Part shown: in pieces, positions 1-8,617 of the stretch
Numbering within the stretch: the stretch's first letter is position 1
Layout of the letters: each line of letters starts with the position of its first letter
Assembly: GCA_965243395.1 (NCBI GenBank)
Contig: CBDEUS010000002.1
Span: 378,022-442,021 of the forward strand
DNA from: Gammaproteobacteria bacterium
GTDB taxonomy: Bacteria > Pseudomonadota > Gammaproteobacteria > UBA4575
Length of the DNA: 64,000 bases
Direction of reading: 5' to 3'
The notes under the pieces: generated by a model
Database searches by the model: none
Told to the model about the DNA's origin: nothing
Seen by the model: only the letters and a program-made list of their open reading frames with translations
Position numbers and translations under genes: made by a program

Positions 1-1308
1 CAACCTATAAATCTCCCCGTAGCCGAATTATTTACTAACCCAAGCCATTTGGTCATTACTAGCACTCCCTCAAAAGCAATTGTTGAAATTGCGGGTGAAG
101 AACAAGGGATAACACCATTTACTTTACGATTAAGCCCTAACATCGAACACAGCATTACTCTCAGCAAACCTGGGTTTAGATCAAATCAGCAAACCGTAAC
201 TTTAAAGCCGGGAGAACAACAGAATATTTCTGCTACTTTGGAAGCGATATTAGGCACGGTGGTTCTTAACATCGAACCACAAGATGCCGAAATTTTTATT
301 AACGGTAAATTTATGGGAAGTGGAAACGTAAAATTATCCTTACCTAGCGCAAGTCAACGCCTAGAAATAAGAAAGTCTGGCTATCAAGTTTTTGAAAGAA
401 TGATTTCTCCAGCAGCTGACTCTCCTCAAGTACTAGATGTAACTTTATCGCGCATCACTAGTACATCCGATATTAGTAAACCTAAGACTTTGCGTACTTC
501 CGAAGGACAAGAGCTAAAATTAATTTTTGGAGGTAAATTTTCTATGGGTGCTGCACGCCGTGAACAAGGACGGCGCTCTAATGAAACCTTACATACTGTA
601 GAATTAGTTAAACCGTTCTATGTCAGTGTGCATGAAATTACCAACCAGCAATATTTAGTCTTTAATAGTTCGCATAGCTCGGGTTCATATAAAGGTCATG
701 ATCTATCTACGGGAAAATTGCCAGTAGTAAATATTAGTTGGGAAGAGGCTGCACGTTACTGTAATTGGTTAAGCATTAAAGATGGGCTAGAACCCGTTTA
801 CCGTGAAAATAATGGTAAGTTAATTGCTAAAAATCCTATACCTTCTGGTTATCGTCTGCTTACGGAAAGCGAGTGGGAATGGGTTGCGCGGGTTAAAAGC
901 AATAATCAAGTATATCGATATGAATGGGGAAACAGTTTTCCTCCCGATAAAGTTACCGGGAATTATGCGGATCAATCTGCTAAAGATTTATTAGACCCCA
1001 TACTACCTGATTATCAGGACAGTTTTATTGTTGCAGCACCTGTAGGAAGTTTTGCCGCTAATCATTTCGGAATTTTTGATATGGGCGGTAATGTTGCAGA
1101 ATGGTGTCATGATTATCATAGTATCTACCCTAGTTTAAGTGATGAAATCTTCACGGACCCGGTTGGTCCAAATACAGGTGATAAGCATGTAATTCGTGGT
1201 GCATCATGGATGCGGGGGGATTTGAGCAGTACACGTTTAAGCTACCGTGATCGAGATAACACTAAACGCACTGATGTTGGCTTTCGAATTGCGAGATATA
1301 TAGACTAA
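1..1308 (+). CDS. PEGA-repeat + FGE-sulfatase (SUMF1/formylglycine-generating-enzyme-like) domain protein; 5' end lies outside the window
   Basis: Frame 1 is open from nt 1, with no stop before the TTG at 49, so the gene begins upstream. Two PEGA-like repeats (LVITSTPSKAIVEIAGEEQGITPFTL; VVLNIEPQDAEIFINGKFMGSG). FGE-sulfatase hallmarks follow (FSMGA, VVNISWEEAARYCNWLS, GYRLLTESEWEWVAR, DMGGNVAEWCHD, IRGASW, DVGFRIAR). Confidence 0.8.
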   Translation, partial: QPINLPVAELFTNPSHLVITSTPSKAIVEIAGEEQGITPFTLRLSPNIEHSITLSKPGFRSNQQTVTLKPGEQQNISATLEAILGTVVLNIEPQDAEIFINGKFMGSGNVKLSLPSASQRLEIRKSGYQVFERMISPAADSPQVLDVTLSRITSTSDISKPKTLRTSEGQELKLIFGGKFSMGAARREQGRRSNETLHTVELVKPFYVSVHEITNQQYLVFNSSHSSGSYKGHDLSTGKLPVVNISWEEAARYCNWLSIKDGLEPVYRENNGKLIAKNPIPSGYRLLTESEWEWVARVKSNNQVYRYEWGNSFPPDKVTGNYADQSAKDLLDPILPDYQDSFIVAAPVGSFAANHFGIFDMGGNVAEWCHDYHSIYPSLSDEIFTDPVGPNTGDKHVIRGASWMRGDLSSTRLSYRDRDNTKRTDVGFRIARYID

Positions 1309-1321
1309 GTGAGTAAACGTT

Positions 1322-1576
1322 ATGATGAATTTGTGTAAATTATTTATTTATATCGTTACTCTGCTTGCATTTACTTTCACGATAGTTAACGCAGAAGAAA
1401 ACGATGGGAATCAAGATGATCAAACTAAAGAAGAACAAGTAACTGAAACAGCTAACAAGGAAAAATCTGTTAAACAAAATGCTAATAAACGCAGTCAGGT
1501 AAAAACACTAGAAAAATTCATTCCTTCAGAAGAAGTCTCAGCGGATAAGCCTGTAGCATTTCCTGCTGATATCTAA
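1322..1576 (+). CDS. small secreted acidic/lysine-rich protein (84 aa), function unknown
   Basis: ATG start 13 nt after the upstream stop. N-terminal signal peptide (LFIYIVTLLAFTFTIVNA/EE). The mature part is low-complexity and rich in E, K, Q. Operon context supports it being real. Confidence 0.55.
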   Translation: MMNLCKLFIYIVTLLAFTFTIVNAEENDGNQDDQTKEEQVTETANKEKSVKQNANKRSQVKTLEKFIPSEEVSADKPVAFPADI

Positions 1577-1595
1577 TCATCATCAATAATAAAAT

Positions 1596-2393
1596 ATGAA
1601 AAAAAATTTTCCATTCGAGTTTATATATCAAATTTTTAGTTTGTTAATAATAATTATCATTGTCCACGCAGCGTATGTTGCTGTAATCCGGCCTAATGCA
1701 GAAGCTGAGCTTGAGCAACAAGCAGCACAAATTAATATTGATAAAGACTATGTGCCTAAACGATCTATTTATGTACTGATCCGTGACTATGAACAAGAAG
1801 CCTGCTTTATTCTAATGTTTTGGGCTTTATGTATTATGGCCTTCAAAAGTATGAACCTATTTCGCGAGCGCAGCTTATTAGACAAAGATTTGCTGCATGC
1901 AAAAGAAGGAATAAAGTTTTTACCTCAAGATACTCGAGAATTATCGAGGCAAATTCAAAATCTGCCTGAAGACGAACAAAAATATTTATTGCCCAGAGCA
2001 CTGAACGTTGCATTGCATCGCTTCAGTTCAACACAAAATATCCAGGATGTGTCTTCAGCAACCACTAATGTATGTGAGTCTGAATCAGAGCGCCTCGATT
2101 CTGAGCTTTCTATTATTCGATACATTACTTGGGCTATTCCATCAATAGGCTTTCTTGGCACTGTGCGAGGTATTGGTGATGCATTAGGCCAAGCCCATAA
2201 AGCAGTCGAAGGTGACATCGCTGGAGTTACAGAAAGCCTGGGTGTTGCATTTAATTCAACGCTTATTGCATTGTGTATCAGTATTGTACTGATGTTTATT
2301 GTGCATCAATTACAGCTTCTGCAAGAAAGGTTTATCTTAGATACACAGAACTATTGTAATAACAATTTAATTCGGCACTTACAGGTTAGTTAG
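1596..2393 (+). CDS. MotA/TolQ/ExbB-family proton-channel subunit (4 predicted TM helices, large loop between TM2 and TM3)
   Basis: C-terminal signature resembles MotA_ExbB: AIPSIGFLGTVRGIGDALGQA ... GVTESLGVAFNSTLIALCISIVLMFIVHQLQ. Two N-terminal hydrophobic helices, then a hydrophilic segment of about 90 aa. Confidence 0.8.
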   Translation: MKKNFPFEFIYQIFSLLIIIIIVHAAYVAVIRPNAEAELEQQAAQINIDKDYVPKRSIYVLIRDYEQEACFILMFWALCIMAFKSMNLFRERSLLDKDLLHAKEGIKFLPQDTRELSRQIQNLPEDEQKYLLPRALNVALHRFSSTQNIQDVSSATTNVCESESERLDSELSIIRYITWAIPSIGFLGTVRGIGDALGQAHKAVEGDIAGVTESLGVAFNSTLIALCISIVLMFIVHQLQLLQERFILDTQNYCNNNLIRHLQVS

Positions 2394-2402
2394 GTCGCTG
2401 AT

Positions 2403-3764
2403 GTGTTCACTATCAATCCCATTATCATTGAATGTTATGACAATGGAATACGCATCTGTGATGATGAGAAAATTCTTGCTGATAGCGCAAGCTTTGCATT
2501 AATTGAAACAAGTCGACACGTTACCGTAGGTCCTTCTGCTCAACAACAAGCTCATCTTCGTCCTCGTGAAGTCAGCACAACATTTTGGAGCGACTTATCA
2601 GCTAACAGCACTACTAAGCATGTTGTAAGTAATGCCGAGCTCGCACTTAATCATTTACATTATGTTTTACAGCAAGCCAATTGCTCGGATCAAGATGCCA
2701 TAGTTATCACTCCCGCAACATTTGATAAACATCACTTAGGTTTACTGCTTGGCATTTGTGAAAAACTGCCCATCAAAATTGTCGGTATCGTCTGCAACGC
2801 TACGCTTGCGATGCAAGGATTTATTGATGATTGCAAAGCTGTATATTTAGATTTATTACAACGAAAATTAGTCTTGACAGAACTTATTCATAGTAATTCT
2901 GGTGTCGAATTAAAAACACCCAGTCGAATTTTTGATTATGGCTTACAGGACTTTGTGCATAACATCGCAAAATTAATTGCTGACAAATTTGTTGCAGAAA
3001 CGCGCTTTGATCCTTTGCATATTGCAAAACATGAGCAACAACTTTTTGATAAATTGCCACTTTGGTTGAATATGTTAAAAAACACGGATAGCACTGAGTG
3101 CAATTTATCCACTGAGGACGAATCATTTTCCATAAATATAAGCCAACAACAACTGCAACAAGCTAATCACCAGCAATTTGATAAAATTGCAGCTTATCTT
3201 AATGTGCTTTTCCACAACCATGATGCGATAGCCATTTATTGTTCATCAAGTTGTCAGCAAGTATTTGGTATGCAAAATTTCTTTTCGAACTTGCCAGGTT
3301 GTGCAGTAATACAGCTTGAAGATGATTCTTTAGCTAAAAATGCTTTGCTTAATAAAGATGAAATTATAAGCAAGGAGCAGGTTTTATACGTAAATAGTTT
3401 ACCTTGGCATTCTAAATTTAAGCCCGACACTTTATCTTTTAATCCTGGGAAAATATCTAACCTTTCAAGTTTACCTACACATATCTTGATTGATGGTCAT
3501 GCATATGGCTTACAACAAGATATTTATATTGCGCATGACAGGTCTTCAAAATTGTTAATCACACTTGAACAGACATCTGAGAGCTTATGCAAAATTTCAT
3601 CTAATAACTTAAGTGTAGATGTTGAGATTTTAAATTCTATAAAAATACAAATGAATTCGATTTCAGTAGAAAATAATGTGCACGCAAAAATAGGCGACAC
3701 ATTAGCTGTTCAGGACTGTTTGACACATTGTCGGTTTATAAAAGTGGTAGAGCATGAAGCGTAG
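2403..3764 (+). CDS. Hsp70/actin-fold-like protein with degenerate nucleotide-binding motifs and a beta-rich (possibly FHA-like) C-terminal domain
   Basis: GTG start. The segment DAIVITPATFDKHHLGLLLGICEKLPIKIVGIVCNATLAM mirrors the Hsp70 stretch AVITVPAYFND..R.A...AG..GL.V.RIINEPTAAA. The phosphate-1 and phosphate-2 Gly loops are absent (IIIECYDNGIRI; VYLDLLQRKLVL). No signal peptide. The 3' end overlaps the next gene by 11 nt. Confidence 0.5.
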   Translation: MFTINPIIIECYDNGIRICDDEKILADSASFALIETSRHVTVGPSAQQQAHLRPREVSTTFWSDLSANSTTKHVVSNAELALNHLHYVLQQANCSDQDAIVITPATFDKHHLGLLLGICEKLPIKIVGIVCNATLAMQGFIDDCKAVYLDLLQRKLVLTELIHSNSGVELKTPSRIFDYGLQDFVHNIAKLIADKFVAETRFDPLHIAKHEQQLFDKLPLWLNMLKNTDSTECNLSTEDESFSINISQQQLQQANHQQFDKIAAYLNVLFHNHDAIAIYCSSSCQQVFGMQNFFSNLPGCAVIQLEDDSLAKNALLNKDEIISKEQVLYVNSLPWHSKFKPDTLSFNPGKISNLSSLPTHILIDGHAYGLQQDIYIAHDRSSKLLITLEQTSESLCKISSNNLSVDVEILNSIKIQMNSISVENNVHAKIGDTLAVQDCLTHCRFIKVVEHEA

Positions 3765-4842
3765 ATCCGTAAATGCTTTTAATTTAGCTTTTTTGGATGT
3801 CATGTTTTGTGGTTTTGGTGCTGTGATACTATTTTTTATGATCATTAATGCTAATACACATGAAAGAAGAGATAAAATAAATTACGAAGTCACAGGTGAA
3901 GTAAATAAACTAGATAAGGAGGTTATAGGCGCACAAAAATTTTTAGTGGAATTGAAAAATTCTTTACAAGAAACAAATGATGAGCTGATTCAAGCACAAG
4001 GTAAGTCACATGAAGTTATCGAAAATATTAAAAAGAATAAAGATCAGCTTGCAAAATTAGACAAAAACACATTAGCCAAGTTAGAAAGCATAGAAAAACT
4101 AAAGGCGGATTTAAAATCGATTGAAGAAGAGAATCAACGTCTTGAAGGTGGTGCAGAAAAGCTATTAGAAGGTGAGCGTCTAAGGCAATTTTCTGGTACA
4201 GGGCATCGTCAATACTTAACTGGACTAAAAATGGGAGGTGAACGAATATTGATTCTAGTGGACACTTCCGCCAGCATGCTAGCAGATCGAATTGTTAATG
4301 TTCTACGTTTTCGAAATTTGCCTCCTGATGAACGCGTACGCGCAGCCAAATGGCAACAGGTACTTTATACCGTAGATTGGATTACCACACGCATACCAAC
4401 TACAAGTAAATTTCAAATTTACAGTTTTAATGAAACGACTTCTGCAACATATGAAGTGGAAGGAGAGCAGTGGTTAGATGGAGGAAATATAAAACACCTC
4501 GACACTGCAGTACATAATTTATTTCAAATAGCACCTGAAAAAGGTACCAATCTTTATAAAGCATTTGAAAGTATTAACCAGTTCTCTCCTCCGCCTGACA
4601 ATATTTATTTGCTAACAGATGGCTTGCCTACAAAAGGTCCCTCGATAAGCTTTGGAAATAAAGTAAGCTCAAAACAGCGTAAAAAATTATATTCTAAAGC
4701 TATACAAGAACTACCAGGTGGCATCCCTGTAAATATCATTTTATTTCACATGGAGGGGGATCCGTTGGCTGCTAGTGAATTTTGGAAATTGGCGCAAAAT
4801 TCTAATGGTGCCTTCTTCAGTCCTGCAAGAGATTGGCCCTAA
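3754..4842 (+). CDS. ExbD/TolR/MotB-like Asp-containing TM anchor + coiled coil + vWA (MIDAS) domain protein, paralog 1
   Basis: The N-terminus MKRRSVNAFNLAFLDVMFCGFGAVILFFMI resembles the ExbD TM helix (FIDVMLVLLIIFMV), including the intramembrane Asp (D15). Residues ~45-150 are heptad-like and rich in E, K, L. The vWA domain has a DxSxS MIDAS motif (ILILVDTSASM) and a later LLTDGLPT motif. Confidence 0.75.
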   Translation: MKRRSVNAFNLAFLDVMFCGFGAVILFFMIINANTHERRDKINYEVTGEVNKLDKEVIGAQKFLVELKNSLQETNDELIQAQGKSHEVIENIKKNKDQLAKLDKNTLAKLESIEKLKADLKSIEEENQRLEGGAEKLLEGERLRQFSGTGHRQYLTGLKMGGERILILVDTSASMLADRIVNVLRFRNLPPDERVRAAKWQQVLYTVDWITTRIPTTSKFQIYSFNETTSATYEVEGEQWLDGGNIKHLDTAVHNLFQIAPEKGTNLYKAFESINQFSPPPDNIYLLTDGLPTKGPSISFGNKVSSKQRKKLYSKAIQELPGGIPVNIILFHMEGDPLAASEFWKLAQNSNGAFFSPARDWP

Positions 4843-4866
4843 GACATTGGTTTTGACATTATTACT

Positions 4867-5874
4867 ATGAAACGACGTCGAAATATTGAAATATTTAGTT
4901 TGTCTTTTTTAGACTGCGTTTGTTGCGGCTTTGGTGCACTGATCTTATTGCTAGTGTTATCCAAAACTGCGGAACCAGTAATTTTTGAAGAGTATTCGCT
5001 CGATCTAGAAAACATATTAGCCAAGTTACAAACCGAGCTGTTTGAAATTCGTGGTGAAACTCATATTTTAAATCGTGATTTAGTCACAAAAAAACAACAG
5101 CTTTCCGAAGAAGTTGAAAAAATTGCATTACTTCAAGCAGATTTATCTTCTATTCTTGGAAAATTCGCTGCTTCAAAAGATAGTTCAAATATACAAAACA
5201 AAATTGAACAGCAACTGGCAACTGCCAAACAAGACCTCACGGAAGAGATGCGTCGATTACAAGAACAACAAAGCAGGCCCAGAACAGAATTTGACGATAC
5301 AGTTGGAGGAATTCCGGTAGATAGCGAATACATTATTTTTATAATTGATACCTCAGGAAGTATGTTTAACCATGGCTGGGGTTCCGTTATACAAAAACTC
5401 TCTGAAGTTTTAGACATCTACCCCAAGGTTAAAGGTATTCAAGTAATGAATGATATGGGTGAATATATGTTCGCCCAATACACAGGAAAATGGATCCCAG
5501 ATACACCAGCAAGACGTAAAGCAATTATTAAACGCATGCGTAAATGGCAAGCTTTTAGTAATAGCAGTCCTGTTGAAGGTATCACAGCCGCGATTAATAC
5601 ATTCTATTCAAAAAATAAAAAAATCAGTTTATATGTGTTCGGTGATGAATTTACCGGTCCTTCGATTCAATCCGTGTTACACGAAGTGAGTCAACTTAAT
5701 CCTAAAAATACTAATGGTAAGCGTCGAGTTCGTATTCATGCAGTAGGGTTTCCGATTCAGTTCAGTCGCCCCGATAGTGAGCAGGGTACCGGAGTTAGAT
5801 TTGCCACTTTAATGCGAGCATTATGCGAGCAAAATGGCGGTACATTTGTAGGTCTAAATTCTCATTATCCCTGA
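4867..5874 (+). CDS. ExbD/TolR/MotB-like Asp-containing TM anchor + coiled coil + vWA (MIDAS) domain protein, paralog 2
   Basis: N-terminus MKRRRNIEIFSLSFLDCVCCGFGALILLLVL with intramembrane Asp (D16). Coiled-coil-like region ~45-140. vWA domain with DxSxS (IIFIIDTSGSM). Same architecture as the upstream gene. Confidence 0.75.
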   Translation: MKRRRNIEIFSLSFLDCVCCGFGALILLLVLSKTAEPVIFEEYSLDLENILAKLQTELFEIRGETHILNRDLVTKKQQLSEEVEKIALLQADLSSILGKFAASKDSSNIQNKIEQQLATAKQDLTEEMRRLQEQQSRPRTEFDDTVGGIPVDSEYIIFIIDTSGSMFNHGWGSVIQKLSEVLDIYPKVKGIQVMNDMGEYMFAQYTGKWIPDTPARRKAIIKRMRKWQAFSNSSPVEGITAAINTFYSKNKKISLYVFGDEFTGPSIQSVLHEVSQLNPKNTNGKRRVRIHAVGFPIQFSRPDSEQGTGVRFATLMRALCEQNGGTFVGLNSHYP

Positions 5875-6088
5875 ATTTTTGATTATACTATTCCACTGGT
5901 TGGCCTTATTCGTGCACTCTGCCCAGTAGGCGATGAGGAGTTGTCACATACTGTGCTTAACTAACTGAATCAGATAGGCTTTTAAGTAAATTTTTAACTC
6001 GCACACAGAATTTTGATCGTTACACTTTGTCGTGAGAAAACTACCGCTCATAGCCTCAATTTAAGCTTAGATCCTAAAGGAGCTCAAA

Positions 6089-6661
6089 ATGTCATTTCCT
6101 AATTCACATGCAACATTCAATTCAATTTATTTGCGGAGTTTATTCAAGTACACCTTAATTTTCATTGCCAGCAGCCTGCTGATTAGCGCCTGCAGCGGTG
6201 ATAAAGAAGATGTACCTGTTGAAAAAGAAGTAACTGAAACTGTTGTTCCGGAAAGCACAAAAGCTACTTCAAACGACATTGCTTCTGAAATTCAAGTGAA
6301 TAGAGAAAAATGGATGGCGCATGAAATTAGTAGTTACCAGATTGAGATGCAGAAAATCTGCTATTGCGTTCCTGAAGTTGTACGCATGATGGTGTTTGAA
6401 GTTGACGAAAATGAAGTGGTATCTGTGCGTTATGCAGACACTGGTGAAGATGTCGATCCACAACACTACGGTGACTTTAATACGATTGAAAGCATGTTTA
6501 CGTTTGTTGAAAAGGCCTTGGAAAAAGATCCAGCCGATCTGTCCATCGCATATCACGATAAGTATGGATACATAAAGGAAATGAGTGTGGATTTTAAAAA
6601 GAACATTGCTGACGATGAGATTTCAATTATCGCCTCAAATATGAGGCCAAAAGAAAATTAG
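6089..6661 (+). CDS. putative lipoprotein (190 aa) with a conserved CxC motif
   Basis: Strong RBS (AAAGGAG) 7 nt upstream of the ATG. Signal peptide with lipobox LLISA|C. CYC motif in QKICYCVPE. Ends 6 nt before the protease gene. Confidence 0.6.
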   Translation: MSFPNSHATFNSIYLRSLFKYTLIFIASSLLISACSGDKEDVPVEKEVTETVVPESTKATSNDIASEIQVNREKWMAHEISSYQIEMQKICYCVPEVVRMMVFEVDENEVVSVRYADTGEDVDPQHYGDFNTIESMFTFVEKALEKDPADLSIAYHDKYGYIKEMSVDFKKNIADDEISIIASNMRPKEN

Positions 6662-6667
6662 GTATTT

Positions 6668-8617
6668 ATGCGATTAGGAGTTGGAACACTAATCTTTTTA
6701 CTTTCGAGCTTAATTACAAACTTTGCATATGCAGCTCCTGAAGTAAACGATTTAACCATCAATGTAGATGGTATCGATTATGCTATTGAACTTAAAAAAA
6801 GTTCTTTCGCAAAGCGTATACAGGTCAATCTAGATACTGAAAGTGACGAAAACCAACCGAGTATAGAACTCTACCAAGGCGATGTGCCAGAAGTACCTGA
6901 TAGTTGGGTAGCCGCTTCCTACTATGATGGTGAATGGCAAGGACTTGCATCCATTCACGATAAATTATACGAGCTAAAAGGTTTTGGAATGTCGGGAACA
7001 GCGCTTGCCGTTCTTGATGGTGATGAATCTGTTTCCATGCAAGCAGATGAACTTGATCTCTCTGGTGATTTTGATATTCATACAATGTGCGCGATGCCAC
7101 ATGCTTATAACGATGCGGCGGCTAGCACTTTAGCTTCTATTCTTCCTAACGCTAACGCGGTTAACAATAATGGCACAGGACAAGGTAATGTAGCTTTTGC
7201 CGTAGGCGCTATTACACAAGCCGTCAACGTAGTGTTAGCACTCGATCAATTTCACACGGCACAGTATGCAGATTCTGTACAACGCGCCATGCGTATTATC
7301 AATAATGTTGATGCTATTTATCGTAATAGCTTGGGTATCGCTATTAATAACACTGCGATACTAAGCTTTGATAACAACAATCCATTATTTGCTGGTATAA
7401 CCGACGCGGAAGTTATTTTAGACCAAGCTATTCTTAATCAAGGCAATGTATTTGGAAATAATCCACGCACACTAGGTGCACTGCTCACTGCGAGAGATAT
7501 ACAAGTACCTTTGATAGGTAACGGCGTTGCAGGCATTGCACCTTTAAATGCCACATGTACTATCATCAATGGATTCGATATTGCGGTGAGTGTAAATGAA
7601 GATCGTGCATCTGAAGGTGTAGCATCTGTCATATTGGCGCATGAAATGGGCCATAACTTTGGCGCCGAACATGATGGCCCTCCTAACAATGCGGCATGCC
7701 CCGTCAGCACTTTTATTATGTCGCCGGTGGTAGCAAATGGGCTAAATGCATTTTCACAATGTTCGAGAGATGAGATCAATGCACATATTGCAAATGGAAC
7801 TTGTTATAAAGAACCTATCGATATTGCTTTAGCTCGCTTTGGAGCACCACCACCTGATAACTTGGCTCAGTTACAAGAAATTACACGTCAAATATCCATA
7901 TCAAATAACGGTACTGTGGCTGTCGCCAATGTGCAAATTGATGGGGATATCGACAATGTAGCCCTTGCCAGATTTACCGAAGTTACCGTAAATGGTGCAG
8001 CGTGCACTTTGTTAGCTGCAGGCAAATCCTATCAATGCAACCTTGCTTCGATTGCTGCAGCCACGCAACAAATTATCAACGAAAAAGTTCAGGTAGTTGG
8101 GTTAGGCACATTTAATTTCAGTGCAAACTTTGATAGCTCGGATGTCACGCAACGCATCGATATCGTTACTAACAATCAATTTGTTACCGATAGTCGTACC
8201 GCGAACCAAGCAGCCGTAGCGCCTGTTGCACCTTCTGGTTTAAGTGCCAGCGCACAAAATACAGGTGACATTGCATTAACATGGGCTGACAATAGTAACA
8301 ACGAACTAAATTTCCAAGTACAACGTTCGACTGGGGGCGGCGCATTTGCAGTTATTGCAAATCTAGCCGCAAACGCAACATCCTATACTGACAGTAATAG
8401 CAACTTAACAGTGGGTACAGCTTACACCTATCAAGTAATTGCCACGAATGCGATAGGCAGTTCGCCTTCAAATCAATCCACTGCAACAGCATTAGAACCT
8501 ACTGTAGCGGCAAGCCCTGCACCTTCATCAGATGACAGTGGTGGTGGCGGCGGCGGTGCCATCTATTTATTTTCAGCAATTCTGTTACTTGCAAGATTAG
8601 TGCGACTCGCTCGTTAA
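6668..8617 (+). CDS. secreted zinc metalloprotease (metzincin, reprolysin/M12B-like) with FN3-like domain and GlyGly-CTERM-type sorting tail
   Basis: Signal peptide (FLLSSLITNFAYA/AP). Extended zinc motif HEMGHNFGAEHD (HExxHxxGxxHD) at nt 7640-7675. FN3-like segment (APSGLSASAQNTGDIALTWADNSNNELNFQVQRS...YTYQVIATN). C-terminus SSDDSGGGGGGAIYLFSAILLLARLVRLAR. Confidence 0.8.
   Translation: MRLGVGTLIFLLSSLITNFAYAAPEVNDLTINVDGIDYAIELKKSSFAKRIQVNLDTESDENQPSIELYQGDVPEVPDSWVAASYYDGEWQGLASIHDKLYELKGFGMSGTALAVLDGDESVSMQADELDLSGDFDIHTMCAMPHAYNDAAASTLASILPNANAVNNNGTGQGNVAFAVGAITQAVNVVLALDQFHTAQYADSVQRAMRIINNVDAIYRNSLGIAINNTAILSFDNNNPLFAGITDAEVILDQAILNQGNVFGNNPRTLGALLTARDIQVPLIGNGVAGIAPLNATCTIINGFDIAVSVNEDRASEGVASVILAHEMGHNFGAEHDGPPNNAACPVSTFIMSPVVANGLNAFSQCSRDEINAHIANGTCYKEPIDIALARFGAPPPDNLAQLQEITRQISISNNGTVAVANVQIDGDIDNVALARFTEVTVNGAACTLLAAGKSYQCNLASIAAATQQIINEKVQVVGLGTFNFSANFDSSDVTQRIDIVTNNQFVTDSRTANQAAVAPVAPSGLSASAQNTGDIALTWADNSNNELNFQVQRSTGGGAFAVIANLAANATSYTDSNSNLTVGTAYTYQVIATNAIGSSPSNQSTATALEPTVAASPAPSSDDSGGGGGGAIYLFSAILLLARLVRLAR

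What the first reader, a model, noticed from the sequence alone, without database searches (positions are those of the whole stretch)
2403..3764. Hsp70/actin-fold protein with eroded ATP-binding loops, translationally coupled to the first vWA gene
Seen in sequence: the segment DAIVITPATFDKHHLGLLLGICEKLPIKIVGIVCNATLAM follows the Hsp70 pattern around the NEPTAAA motif. The positions of the phosphate-1 loop (DLGTT) and phosphate-2 loop (DLGGGT) read ECYDNG and DLLQRK. The adenosine-motif region reads AIYCSSSCQQ. The last ~110 residues (nt ~3435-3764) are beta-rich, with a pattern loosely like an FHA domain (..ISVENNVHAKIGDTLAV...CRFIKV). The stop lies 11 nt inside the next gene, whose ATG is at 3754.

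Inference: this is probably a cytoplasmic pseudo-ATPase or scaffold engaging the cytoplasmic face of the MotA-like subunit. The reading is done by eye and is tentative.
Basis: partly seen in the sequence, partly recalled or inferred. Interest (0 to 1): 0.6.

Follow-up and report, generated by a model that had tools for sequence, protein, structure and literature searches.

The report
Dead Hsp70-like protein with decayed FHA tail
This gene encodes the only fully cytoplasmic protein of a conserved, untested proton-motor gene cluster: it has the shape of an Hsp70 ATPase domain but lacks the ATP-binding loops, and it is joined to a phosphothreonine-reader (FHA) domain whose reading residues are deleted here, in a lineage whose cluster has no protein kinase.

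Summary
ORF 2403-3764 (+, GTG start, 453 aa) has no Pfam, NCBIfam or PADLOC match. Its AlphaFold model (pLDDT 90) superposes on Hsp70 nucleotide-binding domains (Foldseek E 1e-17; VIA Z 26.7, 3.1 A over 321 residues). Residues 352-453, modelled alone, match only FHA domains.

The Hsp70 ATP-site motifs are missing across the whole family of at least 1,182 clusters, not only in this protein. The acidic residues E10, D13 and D150 are kept.

The gene always lies between a TolQ/MotA-like channel gene and two trans-pore-helix vWA genes, within a 9-12-gene envelope cluster. Only the motor core of that cluster has been described, in silico (Mol Biol Evol 2025, PMC12204202).

In six loci where the cluster has an intact Hanks kinase, the FHA is canonical (GxSRxHC ... 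GTxxNG). In eleven kinase-less loci (the window included) and one pseudokinase locus it is degenerate. Here a 4-residue deletion removes the S-R-x-H motif. Reduced genomes carry a 307-aa form with no FHA. dN/dS is 0.13, so the gene is still under selection.

My best reading is a non-catalytic cytoplasmic adaptor of the motor. Its partner is not shown.

This scan found the same family at least 12 times before on other DNA, with the same reading.

The parts
2403..3764 (+). Gene G: Hsp70-NBD-like / FHA-like protein, 453 aa, GTG start, TAG stop at 3762-3764
   Evidence: Identical 453-aa database entry P0002. dN/dS 0.13 against the syntenic orthologue in L061.
2403..3377 (+). Residues 1-325: Hsp70 nucleotide-binding-domain fold with degenerate ATP site (E10-C-Y-D13-N-G15; C131-N132; D150-L-L-Q-R-K; S282-S-S...F288-G289)
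   Evidence: AF2 pLDDT 90. Foldseek E 1.4e-17 to Ssb/DnaK. VIA Z 26.7, rmsd 3.1 A over 321 residues to mortalin/DnaK NBD. Motif mapping.
3378..3473 (+). Residues 326-357: inter-domain linker
   Evidence: Mostly coil in the model apart from a short strand (332-334) and a short helix (351-356), with pLDDT 79-88. Least conserved part: 78% identity and dN/dS 0.22 against L061.
3474..3761 (+). Residues 358-453: FHA-fold domain lacking the phosphothreonine-binding S-R-x-H motif (4-residue deletion, 'ESL----CKIS'). The Asn of the NG loop (N418) and the G-D of the last hairpin (D432) are kept.
   Evidence: Model m76768a998bfe matches only FHA domains. Profile hits EmbR and Ki-67 FHA at E 2e-4. Alignment with canonical homologues.
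3754..3764 (+). 11-nt overlap between the end of gene G and the start of vWA gene H (probable translational coupling)
   Evidence: The same 11-nt overlap is seen in L045, L047 and L061; 1-8 nt overlaps in L006, L046 and L048.
1596..2393 (+). Gene F: TolQ/MotA/ExbB-like channel subunit, 265 aa, 3 TM segments
   Evidence: Pfam MotA_ExbB E 1e-14. 67% mean column identity over 17 loci. dN/dS 0.019.
3754..4842 (+). Gene H: N-terminal trans-pore-type helix with Asp (FLDVMF), coiled coil, vWA domain
   Evidence: Matches the 'TPH-vWA' description in PMC12204202.
4867..5874 (+). Gene I: paralogue of H (FLDCVC helix, coiled coil, vWA-like)
   Evidence: H and I hit each other at E 1e-8.
1..1308 (+). 3' part of gene D (805 aa in full, starting 3,131 nt upstream of the window): cytoplasmic FHA-like N-terminus, one TM, five PEGA repeats, FGE-sulfatase domain
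1322..1576 (+). Gene E: 84-aa exported acidic protein
   Evidence: dN/dS 0.74.

Best explanation
Gene G encodes the one wholly cytoplasmic subunit of a TolQ-like / paired-vWA envelope motor cluster. Residues 1-325 keep the full four-subdomain architecture of the Hsp70 ATPase domain. They have lost the glycine- and threonine-rich loops, the catalytic Lys and the catalytic Glu that Hsp70 uses to bind and hydrolyse ATP. The domain therefore most likely acts as a rigid protein-binding scaffold or adaptor, not as a chaperone ATPase (inferred).

Residues 358-453 are an FHA domain. In relatives whose cluster encodes a membrane Hanks-type Ser/Thr kinase (kinase-TM-periplasmic TPR), this FHA is canonical. 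There it presumably docks G onto a phosphothreonine made by that kinase, which would couple periplasmic sensing (TPR, PEGA, FGE-sulfatase proteins) to the motor. [quoted passage not shown]

In the window's lineage the kinase domain is absent and the S-R-x-H phosphate-binding loop of the FHA is deleted. G here must therefore work without phosphothreonine reading, as a constitutive adaptor. Both domains remain under purifying selection.

Shown: folds, motif states, gene-order conservation, the kinase/FHA association, selection. Inferred: no ATPase activity, an adaptor role, and the identity of the partner (motor cytoplasmic face, the D N-terminus or the C tail).
For: Fold. Foldseek top 50 hits are all Hsp70 family (E 1.4e-17). 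VIA gives Z 26.7, 3.1 A over 321 residues. The FHA model matches only FHA domains.

ATP site. TT of phosphate-1 is lost. The segment holding DnaK K70 is deleted. E171 is replaced by N132. GGGT is replaced by LQRK. GG of the adenosine motif is replaced by SSS. In 236 family members no Gly-rich loop is seen at these positions, while R201, F202, D203, P204, E211 and Q212 are 93-100% conserved.

Context. In 22 of 22 loci G lies directly upstream of the vWA pair, and in most of them directly downstream of the TolQ-like gene. All other cluster products have signal peptides, lipoboxes or TM segments.

Kinase link. Six loci with an intact kinase all have a canonical FHA. One locus with a truncated pseudokinase (HRD to HGR, DFG to RWG) and 11 kinase-less loci all have a degenerate FHA.

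FHA-less forms. 307-aa forms occur in streamlined clusters.

Selection. dN/dS for G is 0.13 (NBD 0.12, FHA 0.16) against a syntenic congener.

Precedent. The GltG FHA domain is predicted to sit on the cytoplasmic face of the AglR pentamer (PMC11761067). The TagR FGE-sulfatase domain acts with PpkA (PMC13713981).
Against: There is no biochemical evidence on nucleotide binding. The cleft keeps conserved acidic residues across the family (E/D at position 10 in 85%, D13 in 93%, D150 in 92%), which hints at some retained ligand or metal function.

The kinase/FHA association rests on few evolutionary events. On a tree built from the vWA pair, the kinase state changes once and the FHA state twice, so relatedness could explain much of it.

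No interaction partner has been demonstrated.

G is among the less constrained genes of the operon (dN/dS 0.13 against 0.02-0.06 for F, H, I, B and D).
Confidence: 0.6

Rival explanations
1. G is still a ligand-controlled switch. The Hsp70-like cleft binds a nucleotide in a non-canonical way (as the non-hydrolysing Hsp70 Ssz1 binds ATP), or another phosphorylated or metal ligand. Opening and closing of the lobes would then regulate the motor.
For: Acidic residues at the cleft are conserved family-wide (E10 71% E plus 14% D; D13 93%; D150 92%; position 131 is D in 61%), as are G289 (93%) and P288 (69%). Ssz1 structures are among the top fold matches (4gni, 6sr6, Z 25.4-25.5).
Against: All Gly-rich phosphate and adenosine loops and the Lys70 segment are missing. 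The window protein has itself lost several residues that are conserved at these positions elsewhere in the family (D131 to C, H154 to R, P288 to F). The 307-aa variant even changes D150 to E and RFDP to RFNI.
Confidence: 0.2
2. G is a dedicated assembly factor for the two vWA proteins. It would hold their short N-termini or trans-pore helices during insertion into the TolQ-like pentamer, and would not be part of the finished machine.
For: The stop-start overlap with vWA gene H is tight and conserved. G is of Hsp70 ancestry.
Against: There is no Hsp70 substrate-binding domain and no J-domain or GrpE partner in the cluster. The ATP cycle that drives Hsp70 holdase action is absent. The cytoplasmic N-termini of H and I before their trans-pore helices are only about 11-12 residues long.
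Confidence: 0.1
3. G is an actin-like polymerising protein (like MreB or ParM) that positions or tracks the motor.
For: ASKHA-fold proteins often polymerise. The Agl gliding motor works with MreB (PMC11761067).
Against: All of the top 50 fold matches listed are Hsp70-type NBDs at Z 25-27. Nucleotide-dependent polymerisation needs the motifs that are missing.
Confidence: 0.05
4. G is a decaying, functionless remnant in this lineage.
For: Both domains have lost their canonical functional motifs. G evolves faster than the motor genes.
Against: The frame is intact. dN/dS is 0.13 with dS 0.71. Family-specific invariant residues are retained (R201, F202, D203, P204, E211, Q212). Position and coupling are conserved.
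Confidence: 0.03

Closest known systems
Hsp70 nucleotide-binding domain (DnaK, mortalin, Hsc70, Ssb; the non-hydrolysing Ssz1)
   Same: Same four-subdomain fold over about 320 residues (Z 26.7, rmsd 3.1 A). Collinear sequence similarity around the 'VPAYF...NEPTAAA' and 'DP..A..RL' segments. The Asp of phosphate-2 is retained.
   Different: No Pfam HSP70 match. About 55 residues shorter. Phosphate-1 TT, Lys70, Glu171, phosphate-2 GGGT and adenosine GG are all missing. No substrate-binding domain, with an FHA domain in its place. Encoded inside a motor operon, with no DnaJ or GrpE.
[quoted passage not shown]
   Same: 11-strand beta-sandwich fold (TM 0.6-0.69). In kinase-bearing relatives the family has canonical GxSRxHC and GTxxNG loops and lies near a membrane Hanks kinase and an FGE-sulfatase-domain periplasmic protein, like TagR/PpkA/Fha1.
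   Different: In the window protein the S-R-x-H loop is deleted and Pfam FHA does not match. There is no kinase in the cluster. The N-terminal partner domain is Hsp70-like, an architecture I did not find described.
[quoted passage not shown]
   Same: The window has the same three genes: a TolQ-like channel, two paralogous TMH(Asp)-coiled-coil-vWA proteins, and no tolR/exbD.
   Different: The paper's main text contains no occurrence of 'Hsp70', 'DnaK', 'PEGA', 'sulfatase' or 'kinase', and 'FHA' occurs only inside 'FhaC'. Gene G, which separates the channel gene from the vWA pair, and the other cluster genes are undescribed there.
GltG of the Myxococcus Agl-Glt gliding machine, and degenerate actin-fold scaffolds of envelope machines (GspL cytoplasmic domain, PilM; the latter from my own knowledge)
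   Same: A cytoplasmic FHA domain associated with a TolQR-type 5:2 motor (GltG; PMC11761067). A cytoplasmic ASKHA-fold domain used as a scaffold rather than an enzyme.
   Different: No detectable sequence relationship. GltG carries its FHA on a TonB-like membrane protein. Whether G contacts the motor is untested.

Membership tests
Hsp70 nucleotide-binding domain (PF00012 / ASKHA, Hsp70 clade) | Two-lobed, four-subdomain NBD fold (subdomains IA, IB, IIA, IIB) | tested here: met
   Foldseek E 1.4e-17, top 50 all Hsp70 family. VIA Z 26.7, rmsd 3.1 A, 321 aligned residues.
Hsp70 nucleotide-binding domain (PF00012 / ASKHA, Hsp70 clade) | Sequence match to the Pfam HSP70 model above the gathering score | tested here: not met
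   No Pfam family at E<=0.01. Only weak profile hits to Hsp70 chains (E 0.0035). hhalign against this genome's DnaK gives probability 26%.
Hsp70 nucleotide-binding domain (PF00012 / ASKHA, Hsp70 clade) | Phosphate-1 loop D-x-G-T-T-x-S | tested here: not met
   Reads E10-C-Y-D13-N-G15-I. An acidic residue and G are kept but no Thr or Ser, and the hairpin loop is only three residues (12-14), against the longer G-T-T-x-S loop of Hsp70.
Hsp70 nucleotide-binding domain (PF00012 / ASKHA, Hsp70 clade) | Catalytic Lys70 and Glu171 (DnaK numbering) | tested here: not met
   hhalign places an 8-residue gap over the K70 segment. 'NEP' aligns with C131-N132-A133.
Hsp70 nucleotide-binding domain (PF00012 / ASKHA, Hsp70 clade) | Phosphate-2 loop D-x-G-G-G-T and adenosine motif G-G-x-x-R-x-P | tested here: not met
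   D150-L-L-Q-R-K and S-S-S-C-Q-Q-V-F-G. Only D150 and G289 are kept.
Hsp70 nucleotide-binding domain (PF00012 / ASKHA, Hsp70 clade) | ATP binding and hydrolysis | not testable with these tools
   Needs purified protein.
FHA domain (PF00498) | 11-strand beta-sandwich fold | tested here: met
   Model of residues 352-453 has pLDDT 89. All top PDB matches are FHA domains.
FHA domain (PF00498) | Match to Pfam FHA | tested here: not met
   The window protein has no hit and is not picked up in a whole-genome FHA scan. 18 of 51 homologues do hit, best E 3e-14.
FHA domain (PF00498) | Phosphothreonine-binding residues (Ser/Arg/His of the beta4-beta5 loop; Asn of the NG loop) | tested here: not met
   'GVSRRHC' of canonical homologues aligns with 'ESL----C'. 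'SRYGTFLNG' aligns with 'NSIKIQMNS', so only the Asn is kept.
TolQ-like / paired TPH-vWA motor cluster (PMC12204202) | TolQ-like gene next to two heterologous TMH-vWA genes, with no tolR/exbD gene | tested here: met
   Pfam MotA_ExbB on F. vWA on H; H and I are paralogues. No ExbD/TolR/MotB family on any cluster product.
TolQ-like / paired TPH-vWA motor cluster (PMC12204202) | Conserved Asp in the N-terminal helix of each vWA protein | tested here: met
   FLDVMFCGFG (H) and FLDCVCCGFG (I).
TolQ-like / paired TPH-vWA motor cluster (PMC12204202) | Formation of a 5:2 complex, with G as a subunit | not testable with these tools
   The pentamer plus partners exceeds the size limit of the complex tool.
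Kinase/FHA threonine-phosphorylation module (T6SS TagR-PpkA-Fha1 type) | Hanks-type kinase encoded in the cluster | tested here: not met
   The window's C protein is only TM plus TPR with a 35-residue cytoplasmic tail. The genome's other kinases share only the kinase domain. A kinase is present in L006, L031, L043, L045, L046 and L047.

The most novel reading that the evidence does not exclude
The Hsp70-like domain is a new kind of cytoplasmic control element for 5:2 proton motors. It would be a lobed clamp docking on the TolQ-like pentamer (or on the D/C cytoplasmic tails), whose conserved acidic cleft binds a non-nucleotide ligand or a peptide. That would gate rotation of the vWA 'axle'. Kinase/FHA input would be an optional layer that has been shed stepwise: canonical FHA, then decayed FHA (this window), then truncated FHA, then no FHA.
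Probability: 0.15. Interest if true: 0.8.

Novelty: new variant of a known kind. Interest (0 to 1): 0.55.

Why it matters
5:2 proton motors (MotAB, ExbBD, TolQR, GldLM, AglRQS, ZorAB) are a major theme in envelope biology. A class with vWA-tipped axle proteins was only predicted in 2025 and has no known function.

This protein is the sole soluble cytoplasmic component of that machine. It belongs to a large family (at least 1,182 clusters at 50% identity) that has no Pfam or NCBIfam model and that I did not find in the literature.

It is therefore the obvious handle for pull-downs, localisation and genetics of the system. It is also an unusual case of an Hsp70 ATPase domain reused as an apparently non-catalytic module. 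The graded series, from kinase with canonical FHA, to no kinase with decayed FHA, to no FHA at all, is a natural experiment on how a phospho-regulatory layer is added to or removed from a machine.

Tried and rejected
- Single-sequence searches of the protein found nothing useful: Pfam, NCBIfam, PADLOC and PDB sequences (best PDB hit E=2, unrelated).
- The search for related loci with alignment A1 failed because no stretch was conserved enough. I used the genome search and the look-up of encoding contigs instead.
- Complex prediction of the TolQ-like protein (one copy) with G gave 'no answer' (score 0.07, mark 0.32). This is neither support nor evidence against binding. The physiological pentamer could not be submitted because of the size limit.
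- Kinase/FHA co-evolution. The association is perfect in 18 loci of known state. On a tree of the vWA pair, however, the kinase state changes once and the FHA state twice, so I do not claim statistically independent co-loss.
- Relocated kinase. The genome's four to five Hanks kinases match the cluster kinase only in the kinase domain.
- Lipoprotein genes M and N, which end the cluster elsewhere, were not found in this genome with single-protein queries. This does not show absence.
- Defence-system reading (Zorya-like). There are only sub-threshold PADLOC hits to ZorA/ZorB on the neighbours (E 1e-4 and 5e-3) and none on G. Rejected.
- The vWA/Hsp70 conflict systems of Kaur et al. 2020 (PMC7159879) have a different architecture (MoxR, or GTPase with a full Hsp70 and GrpE). 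Rejected.
- The promoter and terminator scan of 1-6700 found no more sites than shuffled sequence.
- The antisense ORFs at 2884-3126 and 2936-3133 have no support and were not pursued.
Full report
**Observation**

It has 453 codons and a GTG start 9 nt after the stop of the MotA-like gene, with an AGG 8 nt upstream. Its TAG at 3762-3764 lies 11 nt inside the next gene, whose ATG is at 3754. The identical 453-aa product is on record (P0002), and an 83%-identical orthologue (P0003) has the same length.

The protein alone matches nothing in Pfam, NCBIfam, PADLOC or PDB sequences.

**Family and folds**

A word-indexed search found 116 homologues. An exhaustive HMMER scan of the 50%-clustered library found 1,182 representatives, 847 of them at E<=1e-10, nearly all 430-470 aa.

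With a 51-sequence alignment (A1), AlphaFold2 gave a confident model (pLDDT 90.3, pTM 0.80). All of the top 50 Foldseek matches listed are Hsp70-family proteins (Ssb, DnaK, BiP, Hsc70, Hsp110, Ssz1), with E down to 1.4e-17. VIA-align gives Z 26.7, rmsd 3.1 A over 321 residues against mortalin and DnaK NBDs, with model residues 3-324/325 spanning the whole NBD from its first strand.

The profile of A1 also hits Hsp70 chains collinearly by sequence (SSB1 E 0.0035) and FHA domains (EmbR, Ki-67) with its C-terminus.

Residues 352-453, folded alone (pLDDT 89), match only FHA domains (KIF1A, Ki-67, Rv0020c, DgcB, FhaA, GarA; TM 0.60-0.69). Of the 51 aligned homologues, 18 hit Pfam FHA (best E 3e-14).

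So both fold assignments made by eye are correct.

**State of the ATP site**

I mapped the motifs with HMMER, with hhalign against this genome's own DnaK and with the span of the structural alignment.

| Hsp70 motif | Window protein |
|---|---|
| IGIDLGTTNS (phosphate-1) | IIIECYDNGI |
| segment holding DnaK Lys70 | falls in an 8-residue deletion after the invariant P54 |
| INEPTAAA | VCNATLAM |
| DLGGGT (phosphate-2) | D150-LLQRK |
| VGGxxRxP (adenosine) | CSSSCQQVFG |

This is a family trait, not local erosion. In 236 members none of the Gly-rich loops exists. Position 10 is E or D in 85%, D13 is kept in 93%, D150 in 92% and G289 in 93%. A family-specific block R201-F-D-P204 ... E211-Q212 is 93-100% conserved.

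I infer that Hsp70-type ATP binding and hydrolysis is lost. The conserved acidic cleft residues leave room for some other ligand, and only biochemistry can settle this.

**State of the FHA**

Canonical members read '..LVLG....R....GVSRRHC......SRYGTFLNG....GD.irvG'. The window clade reads 'ESL----CKIS ... NSIKIQMNS ... GDTLAV'. A 4-residue deletion removes the Ser-Arg-x-His phosphate-binding loop, and only the Asn (N418) and the G-D hairpin remain. A third clade (about 400-420 aa) has lost several strands.

**Genomic context**

The window begins inside the operon. Using the genome the cluster on this strand is:

- A: lipoprotein, 284 aa.
- B: lipoprotein, 392 aa.
- C: 35-residue cytoplasmic tail, TM, periplasmic TPR; 512 aa.
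- D: cytoplasmic FHA-like domain, TM, five PEGA repeats, FGE-sulfatase domain; 805 aa.
- E: exported acidic protein, 84 aa.
- F: TolQ/MotA/ExbB-like, 265 aa.
- G: the finding.
- H and I: paralogues with an Asp-bearing N-terminal helix, a coiled coil and a vWA domain.

These assignments rest. G is the only product without a signal peptide, lipobox or TM segment.

The same order recurs in 22 loci from genomes and metagenomes. Many of them carry extra genes: a periplasmic TPR protein upstream and two lipoproteins downstream. At E<=1e-5, 19 of 400 sampled genomes of the class have a match (16 of 348 high-quality ones). Three of the 19 are weak hits, and the two of those I followed up are the FHA-less form described below.

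F is very conserved (67% mean column identity, many invariant charged residues in its cytoplasmic loop). G is much less so (35%).

**Literature**

The F/H/I core corresponds to the 'second family' of vWA force transducers predicted in silico in Mol Biol Evol 2025 (PMC12204202). That family is a TolQ-like gene with heterologous pairs of trans-pore-helix vWA genes and no TolR/ExbD. The paper's text does not mention Hsp70, DnaK, kinase, PEGA or sulfatase, and 'FHA' occurs only inside 'FhaC'. 'TPH-vWA' occurs in no other paper of the library. I found no description of an Hsp70-NBD-plus-FHA protein.

**Link to a kinase**

In L006, L031, L043, L045, L046 and L047 the C gene is replaced by a 750-1,355-aa protein made of a Hanks kinase, a TM segment and a C-like periplasmic part. 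Its catalytic motifs are intact. All six have a canonical FHA in G.

L048 has a truncated pseudokinase (no N-lobe, HRD to HGR, DFG to RWG) and a degenerate FHA. The 11 loci with a kinase-less C, the window included, all have a degenerate or truncated FHA.

In the kinase loci where I tested it, D's cytoplasmic N-terminus gives weak Pfam FHA hits. Only the best, in L047, reaches the gathering score (E 4e-4); L045 and L031 are below it, and L006 and L043 give none.

The window's genome has other Hanks kinases and six canonical FHA proteins elsewhere. None of those kinases has the C-like part, and a genome-wide FHA scan does not detect G.

There is a caveat. On a tree built from H plus I, which are independent of G and of the kinase, the kinase loci form one clade (SH-aLRT 96). 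The kinase state changes once and the FHA state twice. The association is therefore suggestive, not statistically independent. The pseudokinase remnant shows that loss has occurred at least once.

**A further variant**

Three weak profile hits were examined in two genomes, one of them from the same family as the window's. These proved to be 307-308-aa proteins lying between a MotA-like gene and the vWA pair. They sit in a streamlined cluster (shorter C and D) and have no FHA at all (hhalign probability 97%). The Hsp70-like domain is thus the constant partner of the motor, and the FHA is an optional reader.

**Selection**

Against a syntenic congener (L061), G has dN/dS 0.13 with dS 0.71. The NBD is at 0.12, the linker at 0.22 and the FHA at 0.16. 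F, H, I, B and D are at 0.02-0.06 and E is at 0.74. Both decayed domains are still constrained, so the gene is not a relic.

**Mechanism**

My best reading (confidence about 0.6) is this. G is a non-catalytic cytoplasmic adaptor or scaffold of the TolQ-like/vWA motor. [quoted passage not shown] A cytoplasmic FHA domain is also predicted to dock on the AglR pentamer in Myxococcus. In the window's lineage that input has been lost and G acts constitutively.

Which protein G touches is not shown. The one complex job I could run (one F chain plus G) gave no verdict.

Rivals are a non-canonical ligand-controlled switch (0.2), an assembly factor for H and I (0.1), a filament former (0.05) and a relic (0.03).

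**Earlier notes of this scan**

After my own analysis I found that the scan had met this family at least 12 times, and the cluster at least 8 times, on other genomes, with the same reading. My results agree with those notes and were obtained independently here. No claim in this report rests on the unpublished genome G039.

Noticed in passing
L062:10130-11053 (+) and L063:10136-11062 (+): FHA-less 307-308-aa homologues of the Hsp70-like domain sit between a MotA-like gene and the vWA pair. The clusters are streamlined (C about 260 aa, D about 607 aa) and come from small (1.7-1.8 Mb) genomes, one from the window's own family.
   Followed up: partly
L048:4520-6601 (+) and L048:11376-13484 (+): A truncated pseudokinase (no N-lobe, HRD to HGR, DFG to RWG) occupies the kinase position. 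In the same locus the two vWA genes are called as one 702-aa fusion.
   Followed up: partly
L039:15915-16715 (+): In this locus the TolQ-like gene lies after the second vWA gene instead of before G. In the related loci L034 and L036 no TolQ-like gene was found in the fetched stretch.
   Followed up: no
window 1322-1576 (+): The 84-aa exported acidic protein E evolves almost neutrally against the congener (dN/dS 0.74, 69% identity), unlike every other gene of the cluster.
   Followed up: no
window 6089-8617 (+): The two lipoprotein genes that end the cluster elsewhere were not found in this genome with single-protein queries. In their place a DUF6174 lipoprotein and a reprolysin-type metalloprotease follow the vWA pair. 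This arrangement is syntenic in the congener L061.
   Followed up: partly
L045:1-1656 (+): A second Hanks kinase and a PP2C phosphatase lie just upstream of a kinase-bearing version of the cluster.
   Followed up: no
L046:3335-9062 (+): A variant cluster has a 1,355-aa kinase protein, a D protein without the FGE-sulfatase domain (535 aa), and no Pfam MotA_ExbB gene directly upstream of G.
   Followed up: no
L002:14891-15340 (+), upstream of the window: Protein D has a cytoplasmic FHA-like N-terminal domain of about 150 residues before its TM segment. It gives a Pfam FHA hit at the gathering score in only one tested kinase locus (L047, E 4e-4) and none in the window's genome. This FHA-TM arrangement recalls GltG of Myxococcus.
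   Followed up: partly
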